From Escherichia coli (GTDB lineage: Bacteria; Pseudomonadota; Gammaproteobacteria; Enterobacterales; Enterobacteriaceae), in the NCBI RefSeq assembly GCF_051903065.1, contig NZ_CP178438.1: a DNA stretch of 64,000 nucleotides. One strand, written 5' to 3'. The notes under the pieces were generated by a model. That model was not told the DNA's origin. It did no database searches and saw nothing but the letters and a program-made list of their open reading frames with translations. Positions 1-49,911 of this stretch are shown piece by piece (position 1 is the stretch's first letter; the number at the start of each line of letters is the position of its first letter). Made by a program: the position numbers and the translations under genes.

Positions 1-1
1 G

Positions 2-1111
2 TTGGAAGAGGCGCTATTACACAGCCAGAAACTGAAAGCGGTCGGGCAACTGACGGGCGGGCTGGCCCATGATTTTAATAATCTGCTGGCGGTGATTATT
101 GGCAGCCTGGAGCTGGTGAATCCGGACTCGCCAGACGCGCCGCGAATACAGCGGGCGCTGCAAGCTGCCGAACGTGGGGCGCTACTGACACAACGACTGC
201 TGGCGTTTTCCCGCAAGCAGTCCTTACATCCGCAAGCCGTTGAACTGAAAACATTGCTGGAAGAGTTAAGCGAATTAATGCGCCACTCCTTACCGGCAAC
301 GCTGGCGCTGGAGATTGAAGCGCAGTCTCCGGCGTGGCCCGCGTGGATTGACGTCAGCCAACTGGAAAATGCCATCATCAACCTGGTGATGAACGCCCGC
401 GATGCGATGGAAGGGCAGACGGGAATTATCAAAATTCGTACCTGGAATCAGCGCGTTACTCGCAGCAGTGGGCAGCGTCAGGACATGGTGGCACTGGAGG
501 TCATCGATCATGGCAGCGGTATGTCGCAGGCGGTGAAAAGCCAGGTATTTGAGCCATTCTTTACCACCAAACAGACGGGCAGCGGCAGCGGGCTGGGTTT
601 GTCGATGGTCTATGGTTTTGTGCGCCAGTCCGGTGGGCGCGTTGAAATTGAAAGCGCGCCGGGGCTGGGGACAACGGTCAGATTACAGCTTCCCCGCGCG
701 CTGACGGCGGCGAAAAACCTATCGCCAGCGGCAGTAGAACAGGCTTCTGTCAGCGGCGATAAACTGGTGTTAGTGCTGGAAGATGAAGCCGCGGTGCGCC
801 AGACCATCTGCGAACAGTTGCACCTGCTGGGCTATTTGACGCTGGAAGCAAGCAGCGGCGAACAGGCGCTGGATCTGCTGGCGGCATCAGCAGAAATCGA
901 TATTTTTATCAGCGATTTAATGCTCCCCGGCGGCATGAGCGGCGCAGAAGTGGTCAATGCGGCCCGCAAACTTTACCCGCACCTGACGCTGCTACTCATC
1001 AGCGGTCAGGATTTACGCCCCAGCCATAACCCCGCGCTGCCAGACGTGGCGCTGTTGCGCAAACCCTTTACCCGTGCGCAGTTGGCGCAGGCGCTGGGGC
1101 AAGAGAATTGA
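2..1111 (+). CDS. Hybrid sensor histidine kinase / response-regulator receiver protein, C-terminal portion (ORF runs to the window edge, so the N-terminal sensor part is probably missing)
   Basis: Translation has an H-box (LAHDFNNLL), N-box (NLVMNARDAM), G-boxes (DHGSGM, GSGSGLGLS) and a C-terminal receiver domain (LVLEDE ... ISDLMLPG ... LRKPF). Domain call is from motifs only. Confidence 0.8.
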   Translation: MEEALLHSQKLKAVGQLTGGLAHDFNNLLAVIIGSLELVNPDSPDAPRIQRALQAAERGALLTQRLLAFSRKQSLHPQAVELKTLLEELSELMRHSLPATLALEIEAQSPAWPAWIDVSQLENAIINLVMNARDAMEGQTGIIKIRTWNQRVTRSSGQRQDMVALEVIDHGSGMSQAVKSQVFEPFFTTKQTGSGSGLGLSMVYGFVRQSGGRVEIESAPGLGTTVRLQLPRALTAAKNLSPAAVEQASVSGDKLVLVLEDEAAVRQTICEQLHLLGYLTLEASSGEQALDLLAASAEIDIFISDLMLPGGMSGAEVVNAARKLYPHLTLLLISGQDLRPSHNPALPDVALLRKPFTRAQLAQALGQEN

Positions 1112-1179
1112 GAATCCTCCTCTACTCGTAACAGGCACCTTTGCCTACCTTGTATTAACTTTGTTGCGAGGCCGAGTTT

Positions 1180-1509
1180 ATGAAACGCCACTCCACGCTT
1201 TTTCTTTTCACCCTGCTCACGCTGACCACCGTACCGGCCCAGGCCGATATTATCGACGACACCATTGGCAATATTCAGCAGGCGATTAACGACGCTTATA
1301 ACCCTGACCGTGGGCGAGACTATGAAGATTCGCGCGACGATGGCTGGCAGCGTGAAGTGAGCGACGATCGGCGCAGACAATATGACGACCGCCGCCGCCA
1401 GTTTGAAGATCGCCGCAGGCAGCTGGACGATCGCCAACGTCAGCTTGATCAGGAGCGTCGGCAACTGGAGGATGAAGAGCGGAGAATGGAAGATGAGTAT
1501 GGGCGGTGA
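1180..1509 (+). CDS. yjdP: YjdP-like small secreted protein with signal peptide and Asp/Arg-rich tandem repeats
   Basis: 109 aa; N-terminal signal peptide ending in AQA; repeated D-R-R-R-Q motifs; position between the kinase gene and phnP matches yjdP. Confidence 0.75.
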   Translation: MKRHSTLFLFTLLTLTTVPAQADIIDDTIGNIQQAINDAYNPDRGRDYEDSRDDGWQREVSDDRRRQYDDRRRQFEDRRRQLDDRQRQLDQERRQLEDEERRMEDEYGR

Positions 1510-1514
1510 GGTAG

Positions 1515-1650
1515 GCTCGGGTGCTGGCATCGCCCCTCACCCTAACCCTCTCCCCAAAGGGGCGAGGGGACCGATGGTGCACGGGGTGATTTTCTCCCTC
1601 TCCCTGTGGGAGAGGGCCGGGATGAGGGCATCAGCGCGCACATTCTCCCC
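1515..1650. repeat. GC-rich tandem hairpin element (boxC-like) in the yjdP-phnP intergenic region
   Basis: Two adjacent imperfect palindromes (ccctctcccc..ggggcgaggg and ccctctccc..gggagaggg); a second copy of the 25-bp core is at 28975-29005. Confidence 0.5.
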
Positions 1651-1652
1651 CA

Positions 1653-2411
1653 TCACGCCACCCCAATCTCCATCCCATCAAACCCCGCCTCAAACCCTGA
1701 CGGCAGCGCGTTCTCCATCAGCCACGCATCAAACTGGTGGCTGATATGGGTCAGAATCACCCGTGGCGAGCGGATAACCTGATTCAGCGCAAGCACGGTA
1801 TTTAAATCACAGTGATTACGCGGTGCATCCTCGCGCGGCGGGTGGCTGCAATCAATCACCATTACCTGTAGCTGATTATTGTGTAAAAATTTCAGCGTTT
1901 TTTCCGGCAGGCCTGCGGTGTCAGACAGCCACGCCACCCGGCTGTGTGCCGTTTCCAGCAGATAACCGAAGGTCAGTTTTGAGTGGTTTAGCGGCAGCGG
2001 TGTCACCTGCAACCCCTGCAAATCGAACACCACAAACGGTTCCACCGTGTGGCTGAAATCAAGCAGGCCCGGATGTTTAAACAGATCGTCGCAGCCCTGT
2101 TCATCCGGCGGGCCGTAGACCGGGATCGAACCGCCCACGCCCCAGCGCAGCGGAAACAGTCCCTGAACGTGATCCATATGATAATGCGTCAGCAAAAACT
2201 GCTGGAACGATCCTGGCGACCAGCGATCGGTGAGATCGTGCAGCCCGGCGTCGATCAGGGTGACAGCCTCGTTAAACTTCACTACGCCGCTGCACGGCTG
2301 GCGGCGATACTGCGGCGAGCGTCGCGCTCGTGCGCAGGCCGCGCACTCGCAGCCCCATGCCGGAACGCCCTGTGCGCCGCCGGTGCCCGTGAGCGTGAGG
2401 GTCAGGCTCAT
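1653..2411 (-). CDS. phnP: Phosphonate metabolism phosphodiesterase PhnP (metallo-beta-lactamase fold)
   Basis: 252 aa; HYHMDH metal-binding motif; last gene of the phn operon by order. Confidence 0.93.
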
Positions 2412-2412
2412 G

Positions 2413-2847
2413 TTACAGCGCCTTGGTGAAGCGGAAATGGCTCTGCTCGTAGCCTTCGCGCAGATAGAAACGGTGCGCGTCGTGGCGCTTCACGTTGGTG
2501 GAAAGCTCGGTCATTTCGGCCCCGGCCTGGCGGGCTTCTTCTTCTGCCCACGCCAGTAACTTACTGCCGACGTTCAGACCGCGCGCCTGCGGCATCACCA
2601 CCAGCTCCTGAATTTCGCCGATCCAGTTGACATGATGCAGATGAAACTGCAAATGCAGGCCGATCATGCCAACAACTTCGCCATCCAGCAGCGCCAGATG
2701 GTAGCGCATGTTTGGGTCACGCAGGTTGGCGTTAAAGCCCACGCGAAACGCGTGATGGTCAAACTCCGCCTGTTTTAGCTCACAAATCAGCGCGTAAACC
2801 GCGTCGGTGTCGTACTGCGTGGCCGGGCGAAGCTCACAAGCAGGCAT
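2413..2847 (-). CDS. phnO: Aminoalkylphosphonate N-acetyltransferase PhnO
   Basis: 144 aa GNAT-type protein; operon position. Confidence 0.92.
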
Positions 2848-3391
2848 GGTGTTTCTCCTTCTGATGAATCAGCGTCAGCAGCGTGTCGACCGACTGGCGC
2901 AGGCTGCCGTCATTATTGAGCGTATGGCAATCCTGTGGAGTATAGCGGGCAGCGCGCGCCAGCCGGGCGTTAATTTCACTGGCGTTTTCACGACCACGGT
3001 TTTCCAGGCGCTGGCGCAGGATCTCCGGCGACACCTGTAAGCAGATGGGCAGCAGCGCCGATGCATAGCGTGCCCGCGCCTGCGGCAGATGGGCGCGTGA
3101 GCCGTTGACCAGCACGTCGAATCCGGCGTGCAGCCAGAGATCAATTTCCAGCCCGACGCCGTAATAGTAGCCGTTAGCATGCCAGCTTAACGCGAAGAGT
3201 TGCTGACCTGCACGGGCAAAAAACTCCTGCTCGCTCAGGGCGATATGGTTTTCACTTCCGGCGCTGGCATCGCGCGTGATGTAGCGATGCGCCACCAGTA
3301 ACTGAGTTTGTTCCCGCAGGCGGAGTTCCGCCAGCAGGCTATCTTTCCCGGAGCCGGACGGCCCCATTAACCAAATCAGTTTTCCCGTCAT
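2834..3391 (-). CDS. phnN: Ribose 1,5-bisphosphate phosphokinase PhnN
   Basis: 185 aa; P-loop GPSGSGKDS; overlaps phnO by 14 nt. Confidence 0.92.
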
Positions 3392-4527
3392 CAGAACACC
3401 CTTTTACCCTGACGCCAGACGTGGTCGATATGAATATGATTGCCCTTGCGATGCGCCAGCACCAGGTCGGCGCGTTTGCCCTCGCCAATCACCCCGCGAT
3501 CCTGGAGATTAAGCGCCTGCGCTGGATTTTTAGTCACCAGCTTCACCGCCTGCGGCAGCGTAAAGCGGTTGCTCTGGTCATCGGCGACGCGGAACGCCGC
3601 ATCCAGCAGGCTGGCGGGGTAGTAGTCGGAAGAGAGGATATCCAGCAGGCCAAGCTGCGCCAGTTCACTGGCCGCCACGTTGCCGGAGTGCGAACCGCCG
3701 CGCACAATATTCGGCGCGCCCATCAGCACGTTCATGCCATGCTTGCGCGAGGCTTCCGCCGCTTCGAACGTAGTGGGAAATTCGGCGATCACGCTGCCAA
3801 GCTGGTGGGATTCGGCAACATGGGCGTGGGTGGCGTCATCGTGGCTGGCGAGCGCAATGTGTCGCGCGCGGCACATTGCGGCGATGGATTCGCGATTTGG
3901 CTGCGACCAGCGTGCAGCAAGCGCCAGCTGTTCCTCTTCATACTGCTGCATCTGCGCGTCGGTGAGCGAGTATTTGCCCTGATAATATTCGCGATACTTC
4001 TCGCGGTTGGCGAACTGGCGCTGGCCCGGCGAGTGGTCCATCAGCGATACCAGCGTCACCGGCTCGCGCTGCACCAGTTTTTCAAACAGCGGCAGCGTGG
4101 TGTGGTGCGGCAGTTCGCAGCGCAGGTGCAGACGGTGCTCGGCGCGGTTGACGCCGCGTTTCTGCGTCTCTTCGATGGCGTTGATCATCTTCTCCAGATT
4201 CTCCAGCCGATCGCCGCCGTCGCGCACGTCGCCAATCGCCACGGCATCCAGTACGGTGGTGATGCCGCTCGCCACCATCAGCGCATCGTGGCTGCTCATC
4301 GCCGAGTGGGCGGGCCAGTCAACTTTCGGGCGCGGGGTGAAGAATTTATCCAGATTATCGGTATGCAGCTCAATCAGGCCCGGCAGCAGCCAGCCGCCTT
4401 CGCCGTCCATCGCCTCCGGCAGGCGGCTCTGGCTTTCGGCAAAGGCGCGGATTTCGCCGTCCTGCACCTCCAGTGAACCGCTTACCACCTCGTTTTCCAG
4501 CACCAATTTGACGTTATTGATAATCAT
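3391..4527 (-). CDS. phnM: C-P lyase pathway triphosphoribosyl-phosphonate diphosphohydrolase PhnM (amidohydrolase family)
   Basis: 378 aa; operon position. Confidence 0.92.
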
Positions 4528-5204
4528 GAAGAGGCTCCCATTGGGTGCAGGCGGTCGGCAACGTCATTACGTACGGCTTCGTCATGGAAGATGCCGACAA
4601 TGGCTGCGCCGCGGGCTTTGGCTTCGCGGATCAGTTCCACCACCGCGGCGCTGTTTTTGGCGTCCAGCGAGGCGGTAGGTTCGTCGAGCAGCAGAATGGG
4701 GTAGTCGACGATAAAGCCGCGGGCGATGTTGACGCGCTGCTGTTCGCCGCCGGAGAAGGTCGATGGTGCCAGGTGCCACAGGCGTTCCGGCACGTTCAGG
4801 CGGGTGAGCAGACGCGCGGCTTTAGCAGCGCAGGCTTCACGCGGTACGCCGGTATCGAGCAGCGGCTGCATTACTACTTCCAGCGCCGAAATGCGCGGGA
4901 TAACTCGCAGAAACTGGCTCACCCAGCCAACGGTGGTTTTGCGGATTTCCACCACTTTGCGCGCTGGCGCGGTGACCAGATCGACCCATTCGTCACCGTG
5001 TTTGATCTGGATTTGCCCTTCGTCGGGCAGATAGTTGGCGTACAGCGAGCGCAGCAGGGTTGATTTGCCGCTGCCGGAGTGGCCGTGGAGCACCACGCAT
5101 TCGCCCGCGTTGACGGTGAGTGAGGCGCGTTGTAAGACGGGCAGGCGCACGCCGTTTTGCTGATGCAGGATGAAGGTTTTACTGACGTTTTGTACGTTAA
5201 TCAT
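4524..5204 (-). CDS. phnL: C-P lyase ATP-binding subunit PhnL
   Basis: 226 aa from [11 protein letters not shown]; Walker [10 protein letters not shown]. The track ORF (432 aa) is an upstream in-frame extension through a REP element and was trimmed. Confidence 0.9.
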
Positions 5205-5224
5205 TTTTCGCCTCGTGGTTCGGG

Positions 5225-5310
<86 letters not shown>

Positions 5311-5314
5311 CGGC

Positions 5315-6073
5315 TCAATTCTGCAAAACCGATGACACCAGCAGCTGTGTATACGGATGATGCGGGTCGTCGAGCACGCGGTCGGTTAACCCACTCTCCA
5401 CCACTTGCCCCTGCTTCATCACCAGCAAACGGTCCGCCAGCAGGCGGGCGACGCCTAAATCGTGGGTGACAATCACCACCGCGAGGTTCAGCTCCACCAC
5501 CAGGCCGCGCAGCAGGTCGAGCAGGCGCGCCTGCACCGACACATCCAGCCCGCCGGTTGGCTCGTCCATAAATACCAGCTTCGGATGCGTCACCAGGTTG
5601 CGGGCAATCTGCAAACGCTGCTGCATGCCGCCGGAAAAGGTGGTCGGCAGGTCGTCGATCCGGTTGGCGGGAATTTCCACCTCTTCCAGCCACTTCTGCG
5701 CGGTGGCGCGAATATCGCCGTAATGACGTGCCCCGGTCGCCATCAGCCGCTCGCCGATATTGCCGCCTGCCGACACCTGGCGGCGCAGGCCGTCGAGCGG
5801 ATGCTGATGCACCACGCCCCATTCGGTGCGCAGCAGGCGACGGCGGTCGGCCTCGCTCATGCCATAGAGGGAACGGTTTTCATAGTGAATCTCCCCCTGC
5901 TGCGGCGTCAGACGCGCGGAAATTGATTTCAGCAGCGTGGTCTTCCCGGAGCCGGATTCCCCGACAATGCCCAGCACTTCCCCCGGCCATAAATCAAAAG
6001 AGACATCGCTAAAGCCTTTGCCCGGCGCGTAAAGGTGGGTCAGGTTATTGACCGAAAGTAACGGTTGATTCAT
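5315..6073 (-). CDS. phnK: C-P lyase ATP-binding subunit PhnK
   Basis: 252 aa from [11 protein letters not shown]; ABC ATPase motifs ([17 protein letters not shown]); start overlaps phnJ stop. Confidence 0.92.
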
Positions 6074-6915
6074 TGGCTTTTTGCCTCGCTCTGTTGGCGG
6101 CAATAATCGGTATCGGAGCAGACAAACATGCGGTTTCCGGCGTCATCCAGCACCACTTCATCAAGATAGCTGTGGGTCGATCCGCAGATGGCGCATGGCT
6201 CATCCCACTGCTGAACGGTGAACGGGTGATCGTCGAAATCGAGGCTTTCCACGCGGGTAAACGGCGGCACCGCATAGATGCGCTTCTCACGCCCGGCGCC
6301 GAACAGTTGCAGGGCGGGCATCATGTCCATTTTCGGGTTATCGAATTTCGGGATCGGCGACGGGTCCATTACGTAGCGCCCGTTCACCTTCACCGGATAG
6401 GCGTAGGTGGTGGCGATATGACCGAAGCGGGCGATATCTTCATACAGCTTCACCTGCATCACGCCGTACTCCTCCAGCGCGTGCATGGTGCGGGTTTCCG
6501 TTTCGCGCGGCTCGATAAAGCGCAGCGGTTCGGGGATCGGCACCTGGAAAATAATGATCTGATCTTCGGTCAGCGGCGTTTCGGGGATGCGGTGACGCGT
6601 CTGGATGACCGTTGCATCGTCCGTGCGCTCGGTGGTGTTTACCCCGGTCACGCGCTTAAAGAAGTTGCGAATCGACACGGCGTTGGTGGTGTCATCCGCG
6701 CCCTGGTCAATCACCTTCAGCACGTCGCTTACGCCAATCACGCTGGCGGTAAGCTGAATGCCGCCGGTTCCCCAGCCGTACGGCATTGGCATCTCGCGCC
6801 CGCCAAACGGCACCTGATAACCGGGGATTGCCACCGCTTTTAAGATGGCGCGGCGGATCATGCGTTTGGTCTGCTCGTCGAGGTAGGCAAAGTTGTAGCC
6901 GCTCAGATTAGCCAT
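6070..6915 (-). CDS. phnJ: Alpha-D-ribose 1-methylphosphonate 5-phosphate C-P lyase PhnJ
   Basis: 281 aa from MANLSGYNFAYLDEQTKR; C-terminal Cys cluster (CAICGSTHSYLDE). Confidence 0.93.
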   Translation of the reverse strand: MANLSGYNFAYLDEQTKRMIRRAILKAVAIPGYQVPFGGREMPMPYGWGTGGIQLTASVIGVSDVLKVIDQGADDTTNAVSIRNFFKRVTGVNTTERTDDATVIQTRHRIPETPLTEDQIIIFQVPIPEPLRFIEPRETETRTMHALEEYGVMQVKLYEDIARFGHIATTYAYPVKVNGRYVMDPSPIPKFDNPKMDMMPALQLFGAGREKRIYAVPPFTRVESLDFDDHPFTVQQWDEPCAICGSTHSYLDEVVLDDAGNRMFVCSDTDYCRQQSEAKSQ

Positions 6916-7972
6916 GGTTCTGCTCCTGTTGCAGACGTTTGAGTAGCTCCAGTTCGGCCTGGAAATCGACGTAGTGCGGGAGTTTGAGGTGCGAGACAAA
7001 GCCTGCGGCTTCGACGTTGTCGGCATGTGCCAGCACGAACTCTTCATCCTGCGCCGGGCCTGTCGCGTGCTCGCCGTACTCCGGGGCTTGCAGAGCGCGG
7101 TCGACCAGCGCCATCGCCATCGCTTTGCGCTCGCTCATGCCGAACACCAGCCCGTAGCCGCGCGTGAAGTGCGGAGATTCATCCGGTGGGTCGATAAAAC
7201 CGTTGACCATTTCACACTCAGTCATCAGCAGTTCGCCGACGTTCACCGCAAATCCCAGCTCTTCCGGCACAATCGACACGTCGATGTAACCACTGCGGAT
7301 TTCACCCGCGAACGGGTGATTGCGCCCGTAACCGCGTTGGGTGGAGTAGGCCAGCGCCAGCAAATAGCCTTCGTCGCCGCGCATCAACTGCTGCAAACGG
7401 GAAGAACGTGAGCAGGGGTAAACCGGCGGCGTGCGGGTGATGTCATCCGGGTGTGCGCCGCTATCCTCTTCAAACTTCGCCAGCCCCTGACGCGCCAGCA
7501 GGCTGAAAACGTGCGGCGACGGCTGTTGTTCGCTGTCGGCGGTGGTCAGCGTCGGCGCTTCGCCGTTTGCCAGCAGGGTGAAATCGAGCAGGCGATGGGT
7601 GTAGTCGTAGGTTGGGCCAAGCAACTGGCCGCCGGGAATATCTTTATAAACCGCTGAAATACGCCGTTCGAGACGCATCTCCGTGGTGTCGAGCGGCTCG
7701 CTTACCGCGAGCTTCGCCAGCGTGGTGCGGTAGGCGCGCAGCAGGAAAATTGCTTCGACGTTATCGCCGCTGGCCTGTTTCAGCGCCAGCGCAGCCAGTT
7801 CGCGGTCGGCAATGCCGCCTTCGGTCATCACGCGATCCACCGCAAGATTAAGCTGCTGTTCAATCTGGGCGACGCTCAGTTCAGGCAAATCAGTGTCGCC
7901 CCGGCGTCGGCTCTCTTGCAGGGCGTGGGCGGCGTCGATCGCCTTCTCGCCCCCTTTCACGGCAACGTACAT
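6908..7972 (-). CDS. phnI: C-P lyase core complex subunit PhnI
   Basis: 354 aa from [13 protein letters not shown]; overlaps phnJ start and phnH stop. Confidence 0.92.
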   Translation of the reverse strand: MYVAVKGGEKAIDAAHALQESRRRGDTDLPELSVAQIEQQLNLAVDRVMTEGGIADRELAALALKQASGDNVEAIFLLRAYRTTLAKLAVSEPLDTTEMRLERRISAVYKDIPGGQLLGPTYDYTHRLLDFTLLANGEAPTLTTADSEQQPSPHVFSLLARQGLAKFEEDSGAHPDDITRTPPVYPCSRSSRLQQLMRGDEGYLLALAYSTQRGYGRNHPFAGEIRSGYIDVSIVPEELGFAVNVGELLMTECEMVNGFIDPPDESPHFTRGYGLVFGMSERKAMAMALVDRALQAPEYGEHATGPAQDEEFVLAHADNVEAAGFVSHLKLPHYVDFQAELELLKRLQQEQNHG

Positions 7973-8556
7973 CAGCACACCTCCACATGAGTGGTTCGCG
8001 GAATAGCCAGCAGGCGCTCGCCGCAGGTCAGGATCAGGTCGATGCCGAGCGGGAACGGGTGCGGGCGCTCGGTGAGTTCGTGCAGAATGCACTCCGGCAG
8101 CTGCGGGGCGATCATTCGTTCTTCGGCAATGCCCGCGCCGGTGAGACGCAACATGCGCCCGCCGCTCAGGCTGGCGACCTGTAAAATCAGCGTTGCACCC
8201 GCTTCCGGCGCAACGGCGGTGCCGGTGGAAAGGGCGTTGAGCTGTTCGCTGGAAATCGCCTCATCCGTTACCGCGAAGGTCGCCTGTTCCGGCTGGCTGA
8301 CCAGCGGCGCGTTGGTATGAAAACGCAGGCTCTGGCTGACGATATCGTTACTTAATGGCGCGGAAAGCCACACCGGCGTGTCGTTATCGGCCAGCGTCAG
8401 CAGCACGCTGGTGGTGGCGATATTCAGCGGCTGCCAGCCGCGTTTGAGCTGATGCAGGGCGACAATCACGCCCGGCTCGCTCATGGCCTTTAACAGGCGA
8501 CGAAAACTGTGCTGGGCATCCTGCACAGGAAGAATAAAAGCGGTTTCCAGGGTCAT
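7972..8556 (-). CDS. phnH: C-P lyase core complex subunit PhnH
   Basis: 194 aa; operon order. Confidence 0.92.
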
Positions 8557-9005
8557 GCGTTGTCTCCGCGAACCATCGTAAAGAAGTCGACCCGGCTGGC
8601 GTTCACTTCGGCCTGGCGTGCGGCAATGCGTGCCATACGGTCAGCGTCCAGCGGGGCAATAAGGGTTTCTGATAAGTTTTGAAAATGGCGAGATTGCTGC
8701 ATCAACGCGTCAATCAGCGCGCAGCGTTCGGCGTGCTGTTTGTCGCGCCCCAGCACCCAGCTGTAGCCGAGGGTGCCGTCAGTCAGGCGTACGGCGGCGC
8801 GGGTGAGCGTGGCGTCGCCGGCAAAAAAGCGTTCGCCGGTGCCGCCCATCCGCGCCTGAATCTGCACCAGACCAGTTTCGGCAGTGCGGATCACTTCATA
8901 GTCGGCGGTGATGTTCAGCGCGTTCAGGCGGGCTGCCAGTTCAGCCGGTTGGCTGTGCGCCAGTACGGACATCCAGTGCTGGCGGGTCGCGGTATCTGCG
9001 TGCAT
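8553..9005 (-). CDS. phnG: C-P lyase core complex subunit PhnG
   Basis: 150 aa; operon order. Confidence 0.92.
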
Positions 9006-9731
9006 TCAGTGCTCCATAGTGAATTCAATCATGTCGGCGCGCGTCAGGCTGACGGAGTACTCCGCCGGGCTGCTTTCACCGTCACGGTGGTTAAGGGTGC
9101 GCACGCACAGCAGCGGCGACATATTCGGGATTTCAAGGCGCTGGCACTCTTTGGCCTGGGCGCGGCGGGCGCTGATCCGCGTCTGGCTGCGGCGCAGCGC
9201 AATCCCCGTTTGCTCGCGCAGAAAATCGTGCAGCGAGCCGCTGTCGAAGCGTTGCAGCGTCGGCCAGAGGGTGAGGTCCGCAAAGTAGTGGTCGATTAAA
9301 CAGAGCGCGATGCCGTTGACCCGGCGCAGGGTGCGCAGGTGGATAACGTTCACCCCCTCGGCGATACCCAGCGCATCCGCCACATGACCAGACGCCGGGC
9401 GCAGCACCGACAGCAGTTTTTCGCTGGTGGGATGGCTGCCCTGGTCCAGCAGGTTCTGGCTAAAACGCGCCTGGGCGTTGAGCGGGTAATCAAACGGGCG
9501 CATCAGCACCAGCACGCCGACGCCCTGACGGCGCTGTACCCAGCCTTTTTCCACCAGTTGGTCGATGGCGCGGCGCAGGGTGTGGCGATTTACCTCAAAG
9601 CGCGCCGCCAGCTGCTGCTCGGCGGGAAGATAGTCGCCGCAGCGGTAGTGTTGACGAAGCTCCTGCTCAAGTTTTGCGGCTATCTCCTGATAGCGTGTTG
9701 GGTAGCTGGTCGGATGTGTAGACAAGTGCAT
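9006..9731 (-). CDS. phnF: GntR-family transcriptional regulator PhnF
   Basis: 241 aa from MHLSTHPTSYPTRYQEIA; N-terminal winged HTH; track ORF extends 3 codons upstream. Confidence 0.9.
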   Translation of the reverse strand: MHLSTHPTSYPTRYQEIAAKLEQELRQHYRCGDYLPAEQQLAARFEVNRHTLRRAIDQLVEKGWVQRRQGVGVLVLMRPFDYPLNAQARFSQNLLDQGSHPTSEKLLSVLRPASGHVADALGIAEGVNVIHLRTLRRVNGIALCLIDHYFADLTLWPTLQRFDSGSLHDFLREQTGIALRRSQTRISARRAQAKECQRLEIPNMSPLLCVRTLNHRDGESSPAEYSVSLTRADMIEFTMEH

Positions 9732-9751
9732 AGCTATCAATGCCTCGCTAA

Positions 9752-10531
9752 TCAGATAAAGTGCTTACGCAACCGTTGAGAGAGGAAATCCAGCAGGCTG
9801 ACCGTGACGATAACCAGCACCATCAGGGCGCAGGTTTGCTGGAACTGGAAACCGCGAATCGCTTCCCACAGCGTGACGCCGATCCCGCCCGCGCCGACCA
9901 TGCCGACGACGGTCGCCGAGCGGACGTTGGATTCGAAGCGATAGAGGGAGTAGGAGATCAGCAGCGGCATCACCTGCGGCAGCACGCCGTAGAGGATCTC
10001 TTCGAGCTTGTTGGCACCGGTGGCGCGAATGCCCTCCACCGGGCCGGGTTCAATCGCTTCCACCGCTTCGGAAAGCAGTTTGGAGAGCACGCCGGTGGTG
10101 TGAATGAACAGCGCCAGCACGCCAGCGAACGGGCCGAGGCCGACGGCGACCACGAACAGCATGGCGAAGACCATTTCGTTAATGGCGCGGCAGGCGTCCA
10201 TCAGGCGGCGAACGGGCTGGTAAACCCACCACGGCACCAGGTTTTCGGCGCTCATCAGGCCGAAGGGGATGGAGAGAATCACCGCCAGCGCGGTGCCCCA
10301 GACGGCGATTTGCAGCGTGACGAGCATTTCGGTGAGGTAATCCTGCCACTGGCTGAAATCGGGCGGGAAGAAGTCGGCGGCGAAGGTCGCCATGTTGCCG
10401 CCGTCTTTGATCAGCGTGAGCGGGGCCATTTCCGCGCCCTGCCACGAGACGACCAACACGGCGAGTACAACGGCCCAGCTCAGAAGCGAGAACCAGCTGC
10501 GCTTGGGTGGGGCGATGGTGATGGTTTGCAT
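9752..10531 (-). CDS. phnE: Phosphonate ABC transporter permease PhnE, intact reading frame
   Basis: 259 aa from [17 protein letters not shown]; membrane-spanning ABC permease; no frameshift seen in this window. Confidence 0.88.
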
Positions 10532-10545
10532 GTTTGGCTCCGGTC

Positions 10546-10634
10546 TGTAGGCCGGATAAGGTGCTTGCACCGCATCCGGCATCAACGCCTGCACATTGTC
10601 GGATGCGACGCCGGGGCGTCTTATCCGACCTACG
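10546..10634. repeat. REP/BIME element (two inverted REP units) between phnE and phnD
   Basis: tgtaggccggataaggtgcttgcaccgcatccggca and gtcggatgcgacgccggggcgtcttatccgacctac read directly. Confidence 0.85.
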
Positions 10635-10636
10635 AT

Positions 10637-11653
10637 TTACTGCACCGCTTTACTCACCGAACTCATCGCGCTTAGCGCGTTGTTCAGGCGGTCCAGGTCA
10701 TCCAGCTGCGCCTGAATCTCGGTGGTTTTTGCCAGCTTGTCCTGCTCATTCAGTCCTTTATTGCTTTTCACGCCCTGCATCTCTTTAAACAGCGCGAGCT
10801 GGCGAATCGGCACCAGTTGCAGGTCGCTGGAGGCGCGGAACGGCGCCCAGCCCAGGCGTTCCAGCACCGCTTTCTCTTCCGGCGTTTTGCCGTAGTTCAT
10901 AAAGAAGTCGTAGATCTTGTCTTTGGTGGTTTCGGAAAGGTTTTTACGCCAGACGATCGGATCGCCTGGGATCAGCGGCGACTTCCAGATCACTTTCAGT
11001 TCTTTCAACTTCTCCGGCGCGGAGGTTTTCAGCTTGTCGAGGTTTTCGGTGTTGTTAGTGGCAACATCCACCTGCTTGTTGGCGACGGCCAGCGCGTTGG
11101 TTTCATGCCCGGCGTTGACGGTGCGCTTGAAGTCGCTGGCGGAGATATTGTTTTTGGCGAAGACGTAGTAGCCGGGGACGAGGAAGCCAGAGGTGGAGTT
11201 AGGATCGCCATTGCCGAAGGTGAGATCTTTCCGCCTGGCCAGCAGATCGTTCAGGTTGTTGATCGGGCTGTCTTTGTTGACGATCAACACGCTCCAGTAA
11301 CCCGGCGATCCATCCGCCGCGACCGTCTGGGCGAAGACCTGGCCGTTGGCGCGATCCACCGCTTCCATTGCCGACAGGTTGCCGTACCAGGCGATATCCA
11401 CTTTGTTGAAGCGCATTCCCTGGATAATGCCCGCGTAGTCCGGGGCAAAGAAGGCGTTGACCTTCACGCCCAGCTTCTTCTCCATATCCTGTAAAAACGG
11501 CGTCCATTGCGGTTTCAGGTTTTGCTGTGATTCCGTTGAAATAATGCCGAAATTCAGCGCCTTTTCCTGCTCTTCGGCGTGCGCCGGGCTAAACAGGGTG
11601 CTGAGGCTGAACATGCTGGTGAAGGCCAGCGAGGCAATTATCTTAGCGTTCAT
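10637..11653 (-). CDS. phnD: Phosphonate ABC transporter periplasmic binding protein PhnD
   Basis: 338 aa with N-terminal signal peptide; operon position. Confidence 0.93.
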   Translation of the reverse strand: MNAKIIASLAFTSMFSLSTLFSPAHAEEQEKALNFGIISTESQQNLKPQWTPFLQDMEKKLGVKVNAFFAPDYAGIIQGMRFNKVDIAWYGNLSAMEAVDRANGQVFAQTVAADGSPGYWSVLIVNKDSPINNLNDLLARRKDLTFGNGDPNSTSGFLVPGYYVFAKNNISASDFKRTVNAGHETNALAVANKQVDVATNNTENLDKLKTSAPEKLKELKVIWKSPLIPGDPIVWRKNLSETTKDKIYDFFMNYGKTPEEKAVLERLGWAPFRASSDLQLVPIRQLALFKEMQGVKSNKGLNEQDKLAKTTEIQAQLDDLDRLNNALSAMSSVSKAVQ

Positions 11654-11677
11654 TCGTTTTCCTCAATGATGGGGATG

Positions 11678-12466
11678 TCAGGCAGCTTTCGCGTTCTCTT
11701 CGACGCGGTTAATGCTGCGGTAGAGATGGTCAAAACGTTCGTTATCAAACTGTTGGCTACTACCGTCGTAGAAGACGTGTCCCTGACGCAGGGCGACGAT
11801 GCGTTCGCAGTAGCGCAGGGCGTAATCCACCTGATGCAGCGTGACGACCACGGTGATGCCGTCGTTCTGATTGATGTCGCGCAGGGTGTCCATCACGATG
11901 CGGGCGGATTCCGGGTCCAGCGAGGCGATCGGTTCGTCGGCCAGAATCACCTTCGCCTGCTGCATCAGCGCGCGGGCAATCGCCACACGCTGCTGCTGGC
12001 CGCCGGAGAGGGTGGAAACGCGCTGATGGGCAAAATGCACCATGCCAACGCGGGTCAGCGCCTGTAACGCGCGCTGTTTCTGCTCGCCGGTGAACCAGCT
12101 AAAACAGGTGCGCCAGAACGGCGTGCTGCCGAGCGCGCCAATCAGCACGTTCTCCAGTACGCTCAGGCGATTCACCAGGTTGAATTGTTGGAAGATGTAG
12201 CCGGTGTTGGCGCGGCTTTTGCGGATATCGCGGGCCAGACGGCCATTTTGCTGGACGGTACGGCCCAGCAGTTCGACGCGGCATTCTGGCTTTTTATCGC
12301 CGACAATCAGGCCGCTTAAGTGACGTAAAAGGGTGGATTTGCCGGAACCCGACGGCCCAAGCAGAGCCACCATTTCACCGTGATGAATGTTCAGATCAAC
12401 CGCATGCAGCGCCTGATGCTGATTGAAGGTTTTGCTCAGTTGTTCGACGCGGATAATCGTTTGCAT
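11678..12466 (-). CDS. phnC: Phosphonate ABC transporter ATP-binding protein PhnC
   Basis: 262 aa; Walker [10 protein letters not shown], signature LSGGQQQR; first gene of the operon. Confidence 0.93.
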
Positions 12467-12510
12467 GATGTAGCCTCCCTAAAAAAGTGGCTCCATCGTG
12501 GCGGATTATT

Positions 12511-12543
12511 GTGACGATTTGGTTAATTAAAAGTGACTAACAG
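12511..12543 (-). promoter_or_regulatory. Putative PhoB-binding Pho box of the phn promoter
   Basis: Minus-strand CTGTTAGTCACTTTTAATTAACCAAATCGTCAC about 45-75 bp upstream of the phnC ATG; CTGT-type 7-bp repeats typical of Pho boxes. Exact extent not verified. Confidence 0.55.
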
Positions 12544-12598
12544 ATGAAGAGTTAACGGGAATTCGATGACAGTGCGGGAGGGCGGGCCTCCCGGCGGA

Positions 12599-13042
12599 TT
12601 ATTGCGTTGGTTGTTGTTTGACGACATTAATCATCCACGGTACGCCAAATTTATCGGTGACTTTGCCAAAGCCATGCGCCCAGAAAGTTTCCTGCCAGGC
12701 CATTTCGATTTTTCCGTTAGCTGCAAGGTTATCAAACCAGCGTTTTCCTTCTTCGACCTGTTGCGAATCGAGCACCAGCGTAAAGCCGGAGTAGCTGGCT
12801 TTTCCTGACGGCATGGCATCGCTCATCATGATGTCGCTTCCGGCAATACGCACGTTGGCATGAGCGATGGCAGTATCGGGAAATTGCATTCCGGAAGGGC
12901 AGTTCTCGGCGCTGTCCTGCGCTGATTTTGGCATTTCGCCGAAGCTGATTTTATAGAGCAGTTCAGCGCCCAACGTACGTTGATAATAGGCAATCGCGTC
13001 GGAGCAGTTACCGGCAAAAGAGAGGTAGGGACTTAACGGCAT
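12599..13042 (-). CDS. yjdN: VOC/glyoxalase-fold protein YjdN (PhnB)
   Basis: 147 aa; position between phnC and yjdM. Confidence 0.85.
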   Translation of the reverse strand: MPLSPYLSFAGNCSDAIAYYQRTLGAELLYKISFGEMPKSAQDSAENCPSGMQFPDTAIAHANVRIAGSDIMMSDAMPSGKASYSGFTLVLDSQQVEEGKRWFDNLAANGKIEMAWQETFWAHGFGKVTDKFGVPWMINVVKQQPTQ

Positions 13043-13104
13043 GATGGTGACCTCAGTTAAGAGAAGCCAGTTAAGTGTAGTTCGAAATTTATACAGATGA
13101 GAGG

Positions 13105-13665
<561 letters not shown>

Positions 13666-49835: not shown

Positions 49836-49911
49836 TGGTGCCCGGACTCGGAATCGAACCAAGGACACGGGGATTTTCAATCCCCTGCTCTACCGACTGA
49901 GCTATCCGGGC
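49836..49911 (-). tRNA. pheU: tRNA-Phe (anticodon GAA)
   Basis: Minus strand reads GCCCGGATAGCTCAGTCGGTAGAGCAGGGGATTGAAAATCCCCGTGTCCTTGGTTCGATTCCGAGTCCGGGCACCA, 76 nt with encoded CCA. Confidence 0.97.

What the first reader, a model, noticed from the sequence alone, without database searches (positions are those of the whole stretch)
2..1111. Hybrid histidine kinase/receiver gene at the left edge, where the K-12 backbone is not expected to have one
The ORF carries HisKA, ATPase and a C-terminal receiver domain and runs to the window edge, so the sensor half lies upstream. From memory of the K-12 gene order (rpiR, rpiB, yjdP, phnP) I would expect rpiB directly upstream of yjdP, not a kinase. 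This may be a strain-variable two-component gene at the boundary of the als/rpiB region; its signal and cognate regulator are unknown from this window.
Basis: partly seen in the sequence, partly recalled or inferred. Interest (0 to 1): 0.5.

Follow-up and report, generated by a model that had tools for sequence, protein, structure and literature searches.

The report
Known mannose/riboflavin sensor kinase gene lmvK (rbfS)

Summary
Window 2-1111 (+) is a real coding sequence. It holds codons 385-753 and the stop of a 753-aa hybrid histidine kinase (HisKA, HATPase_c, receiver). The upstream half is intact in a genome that is 100% identical over this stretch. Here the als/rpiB segment between yjcS and yjdP is replaced by an eight-gene module. 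That module comprises an OmpR-type regulator, a sugar kinase, an aldolase, a D-lyxose/D-mannose isomerase, a sugar ABC transporter and this kinase. It is O-island 167 of O157:H7 EDL933. The kinase is Z5692 = LmvK = RbfS, and its partner is Z5684 = LmvR = RbfR. Published work reports mannose and riboflavin as signals, and the lmuKAIZYX operon and ler as targets. Signal and cognate regulator are therefore already described. My additions are modest. The complete island is in 410 of 5426 complete E. coli genomes, including isolates not labelled as the reported serotypes. It sits at the same site in E. ruysiae and E. marmotae, and in tandem with als-rpiB in Citrobacter. The sensor is modelled as a TorS/McpS-like helical bimodular domain. 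Linkage to a sugar-binding protein gene persists in distant relatives. The role of the terminal receiver remains open.

The parts
2..1111 (+). 3' part of lmvK (= rbfS, Z5692): codons 385-753 plus the stop of a 753-aa hybrid histidine kinase
   Evidence: Open frame. 100% nt match to the annotated 'hybrid sensor histidine kinase/response regulator' of NZ_CP083585.1, and 99.4% to EDL933. The fragment differs from EDL933 Z5692 at 3 of 369 residues.
44..223 (+). HisKA/DHp domain; the phospho-accepting His407 (His410 in EDL933 numbering) is codon 68-70, in the motif AHDFNNLL
   Evidence: Pfam HisKA aa 15-74; motif position; H410A loss of function reported in PMC10128022.
350..697 (+). HATPase_c catalytic domain with N, G1, F and G2 boxes
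   Evidence: Pfam E 6.3e-21. The best solved relative is the CckA DHp-CA core 5idj, E 1.6e-39.
767..1096 (+). C-terminal receiver (REC) domain; phospho-acceptor Asp689 (Asp692 in EDL933) is codon 914-916. The protein ends 15 residues after Lys738 of the KPF motif, and no Hpt domain follows.
   Evidence: Pfam Response_reg; residues E644, D645, D689, S718, K738. All relatives down to about 25% identity also end after REC.
1112..1179 (.). 68-nt spacer between lmvK and yjdP, island-specific allele
   Evidence: Identical in EDL933. The 80 nt upstream of yjdP are only 56-59% identical to the K-12 (rpiB|yjdP) and O145 (GNAT|yjdP) alleles, and 66% to Citrobacter rpiB|yjdP.
1180..1509 (+). yjdP. Its first ~16-27 nt still carry the island-type allele (MKRHSTLFLF versus K-12 MKRFPLFLLF). 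Uninterrupted K-12 homology starts at about 1196.
   Evidence: Alignments. Megablast of the window against K-12 starts at window 1196 = K-12 4313881 and runs collinear to the end of the fetched K-12 sequence (4375000 = window 62115).

Best explanation
The ORF is the 3' 1.1 kb of lmvK (also named rbfS; Z5692/EDL5436 in O157:H7 EDL933). This is the membrane sensor kinase of the OI-167 module that replaces the als/rpiB genes between yjcS and yjdP. Shown here: the full protein has TM1, a ~270-aa all-helical periplasmic domain, TM2, HAMP, DHp (His407), CA and REC (Asp689). It is encoded divergently from the sugar ABC transporter/isomerase/aldolase/kinase operon (lmuXYZIAK), with the OmpR-family regulator lmvR/rbfR at the far end. 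Taken from the literature, not tested here: mannose (and lyxose) and riboflavin activate the system. His410 and LmvR Asp54 are needed. Purified kinase autophosphorylates and passes phosphate to the regulator in vitro. The regulator binds the lmuX promoter and, in LEE-positive strains, the ler promoter. Inferred by me: the periplasmic domain is a helical bimodular sensor of the TorS/McpS type. The sugar signal probably reaches it through the periplasmic binding protein LmuZ, as with TorT-TorS or ChvE-VirA. Phosphate most likely goes directly from His407 to the regulator. The terminal REC would then act as a modulating or competing acceptor, as in VirA, because no Hpt domain is present in the protein, the island or any related locus examined.
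For: Identity and position. K-12 comparison. Domains and residues. Partner and operon. Published function: PMC9860305, PMC10128022, review PMC11644481. Sensor fold: an AlphaFold2 model with mean pLDDT 90.7, all helical. Foldseek puts PilJ, the TorS sensor domain (3i9y, target-normalised TM 0.74, rmsd 3.6) and McpS on top. Conserved linkage to a sugar ABC transporter/binding-protein gene in four of the six more distant relatives sampled below the Citrobacter level. Full-length (sensor-domain) identities are 63% (61%), 51% (44%) and 39% (29%); the fourth has 26% sensor-domain identity. One of these loci is a kinase/binding-protein/regulator operon like torS-torT-torR. No Hpt family is listed for any gene of the related loci fetched.
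Against: Yang et al. draw the pathway with an 'unknown Hpt', and Asp692 has never been mutated, so a relay is not excluded. Foldseek E-values for the sensor fold are weak (6e-4 to 3e-3). The binding-protein co-sensor idea rests on gene neighbourhood only. One distant relative (P0227) has no binding-protein gene nearby. The contig of another (P0125) starts at the kinase, so it is uninformative. Riboflavin was reported to stimulate the purified kinase, which suggests direct ligand binding. The window itself holds only the cytoplasmic half, so everything upstream comes from a genome that is identical over the overlap, not from the window.
Confidence: 0.93

Rival explanations
1. True phosphorelay: His407 passes phosphate to Asp689 of the kinase's own REC, then to a histidine phosphotransfer protein encoded elsewhere in the chromosome, and only then to LmvR. 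This is the model drawn by Yang et al.
For: The REC domain keeps every catalytic residue, and it is conserved at the C-terminus across the whole family. CckA, the closest solved kinase core, uses a separate Hpt protein (ChpT; established knowledge). The model is proposed in PMC10128022.
Against: Direct transfer from the purified kinase to the regulator was reported in vitro. No Hpt gene lies in the island or in any related locus fetched. From general knowledge, E. coli has no free-standing Hpt protein apart from the one in RcsD.
Confidence: 0.25
2. The ORF is a decayed remnant, either a pseudogene or an orphan kinase without a partner, left at a deletion-prone site.
For: The yjcS-yjdP interval is clearly deletion-prone. 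There are rpiB remnants in about 1578 genomes, GNAT remnants, and truncated lmuK/lmuA in strain R32_14_1F.
Against: The frame is open over all 369 codons. All motifs are intact, and the full 753-aa gene plus regulator and operon are intact in the identical genome. The fragment differs from the functional EDL933 protein at only 3 of 369 residues.
Confidence: 0.02
3. The kinase senses its ligand(s) directly in the helical periplasmic domain, as McpS binds malate or acetate, with no role for the binding protein. On this view riboflavin is a genuine second ligand.
For: McpS and PilJ ligand-binding domains are among the top fold matches. Riboflavin raised autophosphorylation of the purified kinase.
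Against: The divergent sugar ABC operon with its binding-protein gene stays next to the kinase down to about 25% sensor identity, while the catabolic genes change. TorS, which does use a binding protein, gives the best TM-score.
Confidence: 0.35

Closest known systems
LmvK/LmvR = RbfS/RbfR of E. coli O157:H7 EDL933 (Z5692/Z5684, island OI-167)
   Same: It is the same gene. Nucleotide identity is 99.4%, and 366 of 369 residues are identical in the fragment. It has the same neighbours, the same site between yjcS and yjdP, and the same domain order and phosphorylation residues.
   Different: The allele here has a 3-aa shorter NDF repeat in the sensor domain and 4 substitutions over the full length. 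It comes from a K-12-like backbone whose best match is a 4.8-Mb isolate from meat, not a genome labelled O157.
VirA/VirG with ChvE (Agrobacterium)
   Same: A membrane kinase ending in a REC domain without Hpt, and an OmpR-family partner. VirG is the second-best NCBIfam hit of the regulator, and the VirA-like model hits residues 376-750. A periplasmic sugar-binding protein of an ABC transporter acts as co-sensor (established knowledge for ChvE).
   Different: Scores are far below the family cut-offs (216.7 against 647). There is no phenol-sensing linker, and the co-sensor role of LmuZ is untested.
TorS/TorT/TorR (TMAO system)
   Same: The periplasmic domain model superposes on the TorS sensor domain. 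The regulator resembles TorR. The literature notes 43% and 56% similarity. One distant relative has a kinase/binding-protein/regulator operon.
   Different: TorS carries a C-terminal Hpt domain, and this protein stops after REC. The NCBIfam TorS score is 135 against a cut-off of 676.5.
CckA (Caulobacter/Brucella)
   Same: It has the closest solved kinase core (5idj, E 1.6e-39), the same AHDFNNLL H-box, and a REC at the C-terminus.
   Different: CckA has cytoplasmic PAS sensors and uses ChpT. Here the PAS_7 domain found in the ~870-aa relatives is missing, and the NCBIfam scores are below a third of the cut-off.

Membership tests
LmvK/RbfS (OI-167 hybrid kinase) | Near-identity to EDL933 Z5692 | tested here: met
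   99.4% nt over window 1-1111. 366/369 residues are identical in the fragment. Over the full length of the identical genome's gene there are 4 substitutions plus a 3-aa indel.
LmvK/RbfS (OI-167 hybrid kinase) | [quoted passage not shown] | tested here: met
   yjdP starts 68 nt after the stop in the window. The yjcS side is seen in the 100%-identical genome and in EDL933. K-12 has alsK...rpiB there.
LmvK/RbfS (OI-167 hybrid kinase) | Accompanied by lmvR and lmuKAIZYX | tested here: met
   All seven genes are intact in NZ_CP083585.1. The whole 9.3-kb module is found in 410 genomes. They lie outside the window, so this is inferred for the source genome.
LmvK/RbfS (OI-167 hybrid kinase) | Responds to mannose/riboflavin and phosphorylates LmvR | not testable with these tools
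   Reported in PMC10128022 and PMC9860305 only.
Hybrid histidine kinase (HisKA-HATPase_c-REC) | H-box His, the N/G1/F/G2 boxes, and REC Asp and Lys | tested here: met
   Pfam hits; residues located.
TorS-type sensor kinase | C-terminal Hpt domain after REC and a score above the family cut-off | tested here: not met
   The protein ends 15 residues after Lys738 of the REC KPF motif. TIGR02956 scores 135 bits against a cut-off of 676.5.
TorS-type sensor kinase | Helical bimodular periplasmic sensor domain | tested here: inconclusive
   A high-confidence model (pLDDT 90.7) matches 3i9y with TMt 0.74. Foldseek E-values are only 6e-4 to 3e-3, and McpS and PilJ score alike.
VirA-like kinase | Score above the NF010411 cut-off | tested here: not met
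   216.7 bits against a cut-off of 647.
CckA | Score above the equivalog cut-off; PAS sensor domains | tested here: not met
   299 and 245 bits against a cut-off of 1000. No PAS domain is found in this protein.

The most novel reading that the evidence does not exclude
The OI-167 module may not be an EHEC-specific foreign acquisition. It could be an old Escherichia/Citrobacter sugar-sensing locus that most E. coli lineages lost and a few re-exchanged by recombination. Three observations point this way. It sits at the same site in E. ruysiae and E. marmotae, with the same divergence as the flanking core genes. It lies in tandem with als-rpiB-yjdP in C. freundii. It also occurs in E. coli isolates from birds, water and meat. 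On this reading, its ancestral job is control of a lyxose/mannose-type ABC operon. A TorS-like helical sensor would read the loaded binding protein, and the terminal receiver would act as a VirA-like modulator rather than a relay step. The link to ler would be a later add-on.
Probability: 0.4. Interest if true: 0.3.

Novelty: already known. Interest (0 to 1): 0.12.

Why it matters
For the scan, this removes a candidate: the gene, its partner, its operon and its position are all in the literature. The residual value is corrective. The published view of an EHEC-restricted, horizontally acquired system does not fit the wider distribution seen here or the same-site orthologues in other Escherichia species and in Citrobacter. 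Two mechanistic points are also still untested: what the receiver domain does, and how the sugar is detected.

Tried and rejected
1. Hpt lost by truncation. Relatives of ~870 aa suggested a missing C-terminal Hpt. Pfam and alignment show instead that the extra ~100 aa is a PAS_7 domain between HAMP and HisKA, and all relatives end after REC.

2. Window-type lmvK|yjdP junction as a simple deletion of the GNAT gene seen in O145/14EC033. The 80 nt upstream of yjdP are only 56% identical between the two types, so this is not supported.

3. Junction as a deletion of als-rpiB from a Citrobacter-like tandem ancestor. The last codons, the stop and the spacer resemble the rpiB 3' end. But identity is only 66%, so this is suggestive and unproven.

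4. Traces of the island in genomes that keep only an rpiB remnant (KW21). None were found; that state derives from the K-12 type.

5. LEE or another island at pheU inside the window. pheU is unoccupied, and the window is collinear with K-12.

6. Not done: I did not determine whether the source genome carries LEE elsewhere (selC, pheV), or whether it has any Hpt protein.

7. No NCBIfam equivalog model reaches its cut-off for the kinase or the regulator.

Full report
**Observation**

Window 2-1111 (+) is open in one frame up to a TGA at 1109-1111. Pfam finds HisKA, HATPase_c and Response_reg in that order, with E-values from 4.5e-07 to 6.3e-21. The listed TTG 'start' is only the first codon after the window edge.

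The stretch matches E. coli ECNB21-M121 (NZ_CP083585.1) at 100%. There it is the last 369 codons of an intact 753-aa gene annotated as a hybrid sensor histidine kinase/response regulator.

All catalytic residues are in place. These are His407 in AHDFNNLL (window 68-70), the N, G1 and G2 boxes, and in the receiver E644/D645, Asp689 (window 914-916), S718 and K738.

**Context**

In MG1655 the order is yjcS, alsK-E-C-A-B, alsR, rpiB, yjdP, phnP, and rpiB ends 68 nt before yjdP.

In the identical genome and in O157:H7 EDL933, the als/rpiB segment is replaced by eight genes:
- an OmpR-family response regulator;
- a PfkB sugar kinase;
- a ketose-bisphosphate aldolase;
- a D-lyxose/D-mannose isomerase (NCBIfam equivalog above cut-off);
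- an RbsB-like binding protein, a permease and an ATPase;
- this kinase, transcribed divergently from the ATPase gene.

Against K-12, the window is collinear from position 1196 (inside the yjdP signal peptide) to the end of the fetched K-12 sequence (4375000 = window 62115). The kinase fragment is therefore the only non-K-12 DNA in the window.

**What it is**

This is O-island 167.
- Yang et al. 2023 (mBio, PMC10128022) describe exactly this arrangement. They report the hybrid kinase LmvK (TM1, TM2, HAMP, DHp His410, CA, REC Asp692) and the regulator LmvR (Asp54). [quoted passage not shown] The system supports growth on lyxose and mannose, LmvR footprints on the lmuX promoter, and mannose induces the LEE.
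- Liu et al. 2022 (PNAS, PMC9860305) name the same pair RbfS/RbfR (Z5692/Z5684). They report induction by riboflavin, autophosphorylation of the purified kinase, phosphotransfer to the regulator in vitro, and binding of the regulator to the ler promoter.
- A 2024 review merges the two accounts.

The window's fragment differs from the EDL933 protein at 3 of 369 residues. Over the full length there are 4 substitutions and a 3-aa indel, which shifts the numbering to His407/Asp689. The finding is therefore correct and already known.

**Mechanism: what is shown and what is inferred**

Shown here are the domain order and the intact catalytic residues. The kinase core is closest to CckA among solved structures (5idj, E 1.6e-39). 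No curated NCBIfam family reaches its cut-off for the kinase.

An AlphaFold2 model of residues 1-372, built on 46 homologues, is confident (mean pLDDT 90.7) and entirely helical. Foldseek ranks the periplasmic regions of PilJ, TorS (3i9y, TM 0.74 normalised by target, rmsd 3.6) and McpS first, although with weak E-values. That is the helical bimodular fold. Such a domain can bind small ligands itself (McpS) or dock a periplasmic binding protein (TorS-TorT).

Gene neighbourhoods favour a functional tie to the binding protein.
- At 63% full-length identity (61% over the sensor domain), the whole eight-gene module is conserved.
- At 51% full-length identity (44% sensor), the kinase is still divergent from ATPase-permease-binding protein, but the catabolic gene is an FGGY kinase.
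- At 39% full-length identity (29% sensor), isomerase, aldolase, regulator, ABC genes and kinase are again together.
- At 26% sensor-domain identity, the kinase gene overlaps a solitary binding-protein gene followed by the regulator, as in torS-torT-torR.
- One distant relative (P0227) lacks a nearby binding-protein gene, and the P0125 contig starts at the kinase and is uninformative.

None of these loci lists an Hpt family, and every family member ends after REC. Together with the reported direct transfer in vitro, I favour His407 to LmvR directly, with REC as a modulating acceptor as in VirA. The relay through an unknown Hpt drawn by Yang et al. remains possible, because Asp692 has not been mutated.

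**Points that go beyond the papers**

1. *Distribution.* The complete 9.3-kb module is in 410 of 5426 complete E. coli genomes. In an evenly spaced sample of 58 carriers, about 10 are not labelled O157, O55 or O145. These have genomes of 4.6-5.2 Mb and come from meat, chicken, pigeon, guinea fowl, fresh water, cattle and a human clinical specimen. The window's own best match is one of them. Both papers describe the system as restricted to O157:H7, O145:H28 and O55:H7. I did not determine the pathotype of the other carriers.

2. *Other species.* Orthologues exist in E. ruysiae, E. marmotae, unnamed Escherichia clades, Shigella boydii and the Citrobacter freundii group.
   - In E. ruysiae and E. 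marmotae the module is at the same yjcS-yjdP site.
   - Its nucleotide identity to the window-type allele (89-94.5%) equals that of the flanking core genes (88.7-94%). This fits vertical descent.
   - In C. freundii the module lies directly beside alsK...rpiB-yjdP-phnP, so both cassettes coexist there.
   - Within E. coli, island genes are more alike between the window type and EDL933 (99.0-99.9%) than most flanking genes are: mdtN 94.5%, yjdP 96.0%, yjdN 97.7%, yjcS 97.8%, ytcA 98.2%. The exception is yjdM, at 99.7%. This fits recent exchange within the species.

3. *A variable interval.* The yjcS-yjdP interval has at least four states in E. coli:
   - als plus intact rpiB (3402 genomes);
   - an internally deleted rpiB only (about 1578 genomes);
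   - the module abutting yjdP (the window, O157);
   - the module followed by a GNAT gene or its remnant (O145:H28, 14EC033, R32_14_1F).

   The 80 nt upstream of yjdP fall into three alleles only 54-59% identical to one another.

4. *A missing PAS domain.* The E. coli/Citrobacter kinase lacks a ~100-aa PAS_7 domain that relatives of ~870 aa carry between HAMP and HisKA. The gap falls after residue 376, just upstream of the window edge.

**Verdict**

The gene is a published, experimentally studied two-component kinase. Remaining interest is limited to the unresolved role of its receiver domain, the way the sugar is sensed, and a distribution wider than reported.

Noticed in passing
window 13163-13662: About five tandem copies of a 100-bp unit (92% matches) made of REP-like palindromes, in the yjdN-yjdM spacer. 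K-12 has the same array with a different register or copy number (blast offsets of 100 nt).
   Followed up: partly
window 1196-13163 versus 13163-61740: The yjdP-phn segment next to the island is only 95.9% identical to K-12, while the following 48.6 kb is 98.9% identical. This suggests a recombination tract that includes the island's right flank. In the identical genome phnE is annotated intact, whereas it is a pseudogene in K-12.
   Followed up: partly
window 1510-1652: The yjdP-phnP spacer (143 nt) carries G+C-rich inverted repeats (…CCCTCTCCCCAAAGGGGCGAGGGG… and …CCCTCTCCCTGTGGGAGAGGG…), which resemble a box C-type repeat. The spacer is 146 nt in K-12 but only 76 nt in EDL933 and O145, so the element is probably absent there.
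   Followed up: no
window 49836-49911: tRNA-Phe (pheU), a common integration site for LEE and other islands, is unoccupied. The flanks are collinear with K-12.
   Followed up: yes
L009:12227-12859; remnants at L007:12255-12458 and L008:12225-12542: A 210-aa N-acetyltransferase gene lies between lmvK and yjdP in strain 14EC033 and in E. marmotae, and is reduced to fragments in O145 and R32_14_1F. In those strains LmvK ends ...GQIEG (754 aa) or ...LG (750 aa) instead of ...GQEN.
   Followed up: partly
L020 and L022 (E. ruysiae, E. marmotae): The module there lacks the aldolase and isomerase genes (regulator, PfkB kinase, ABC genes and kinase only). The whole phn operon is also absent, with yjdP followed directly by yjdN. 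Strain R32_14_1F shows a similar partial decay of lmuK/lmuA and of phn.
   Followed up: no
L016:4228-8630: A relative whose sensor domain is about 26% identical forms a kinase / solitary periplasmic binding protein / OmpR-type regulator operon. A second ABC transporter with its own binding protein is divergent upstream. The layout looks like torS-torT-torR.
   Followed up: no
L015:6708-7862: In the relative whose sensor domain is ~29% identical, a flavohaemoglobin-like gene (globin plus FAD/NAD-binding domains) sits between the ABC operon and the kinase gene.
   Followed up: no
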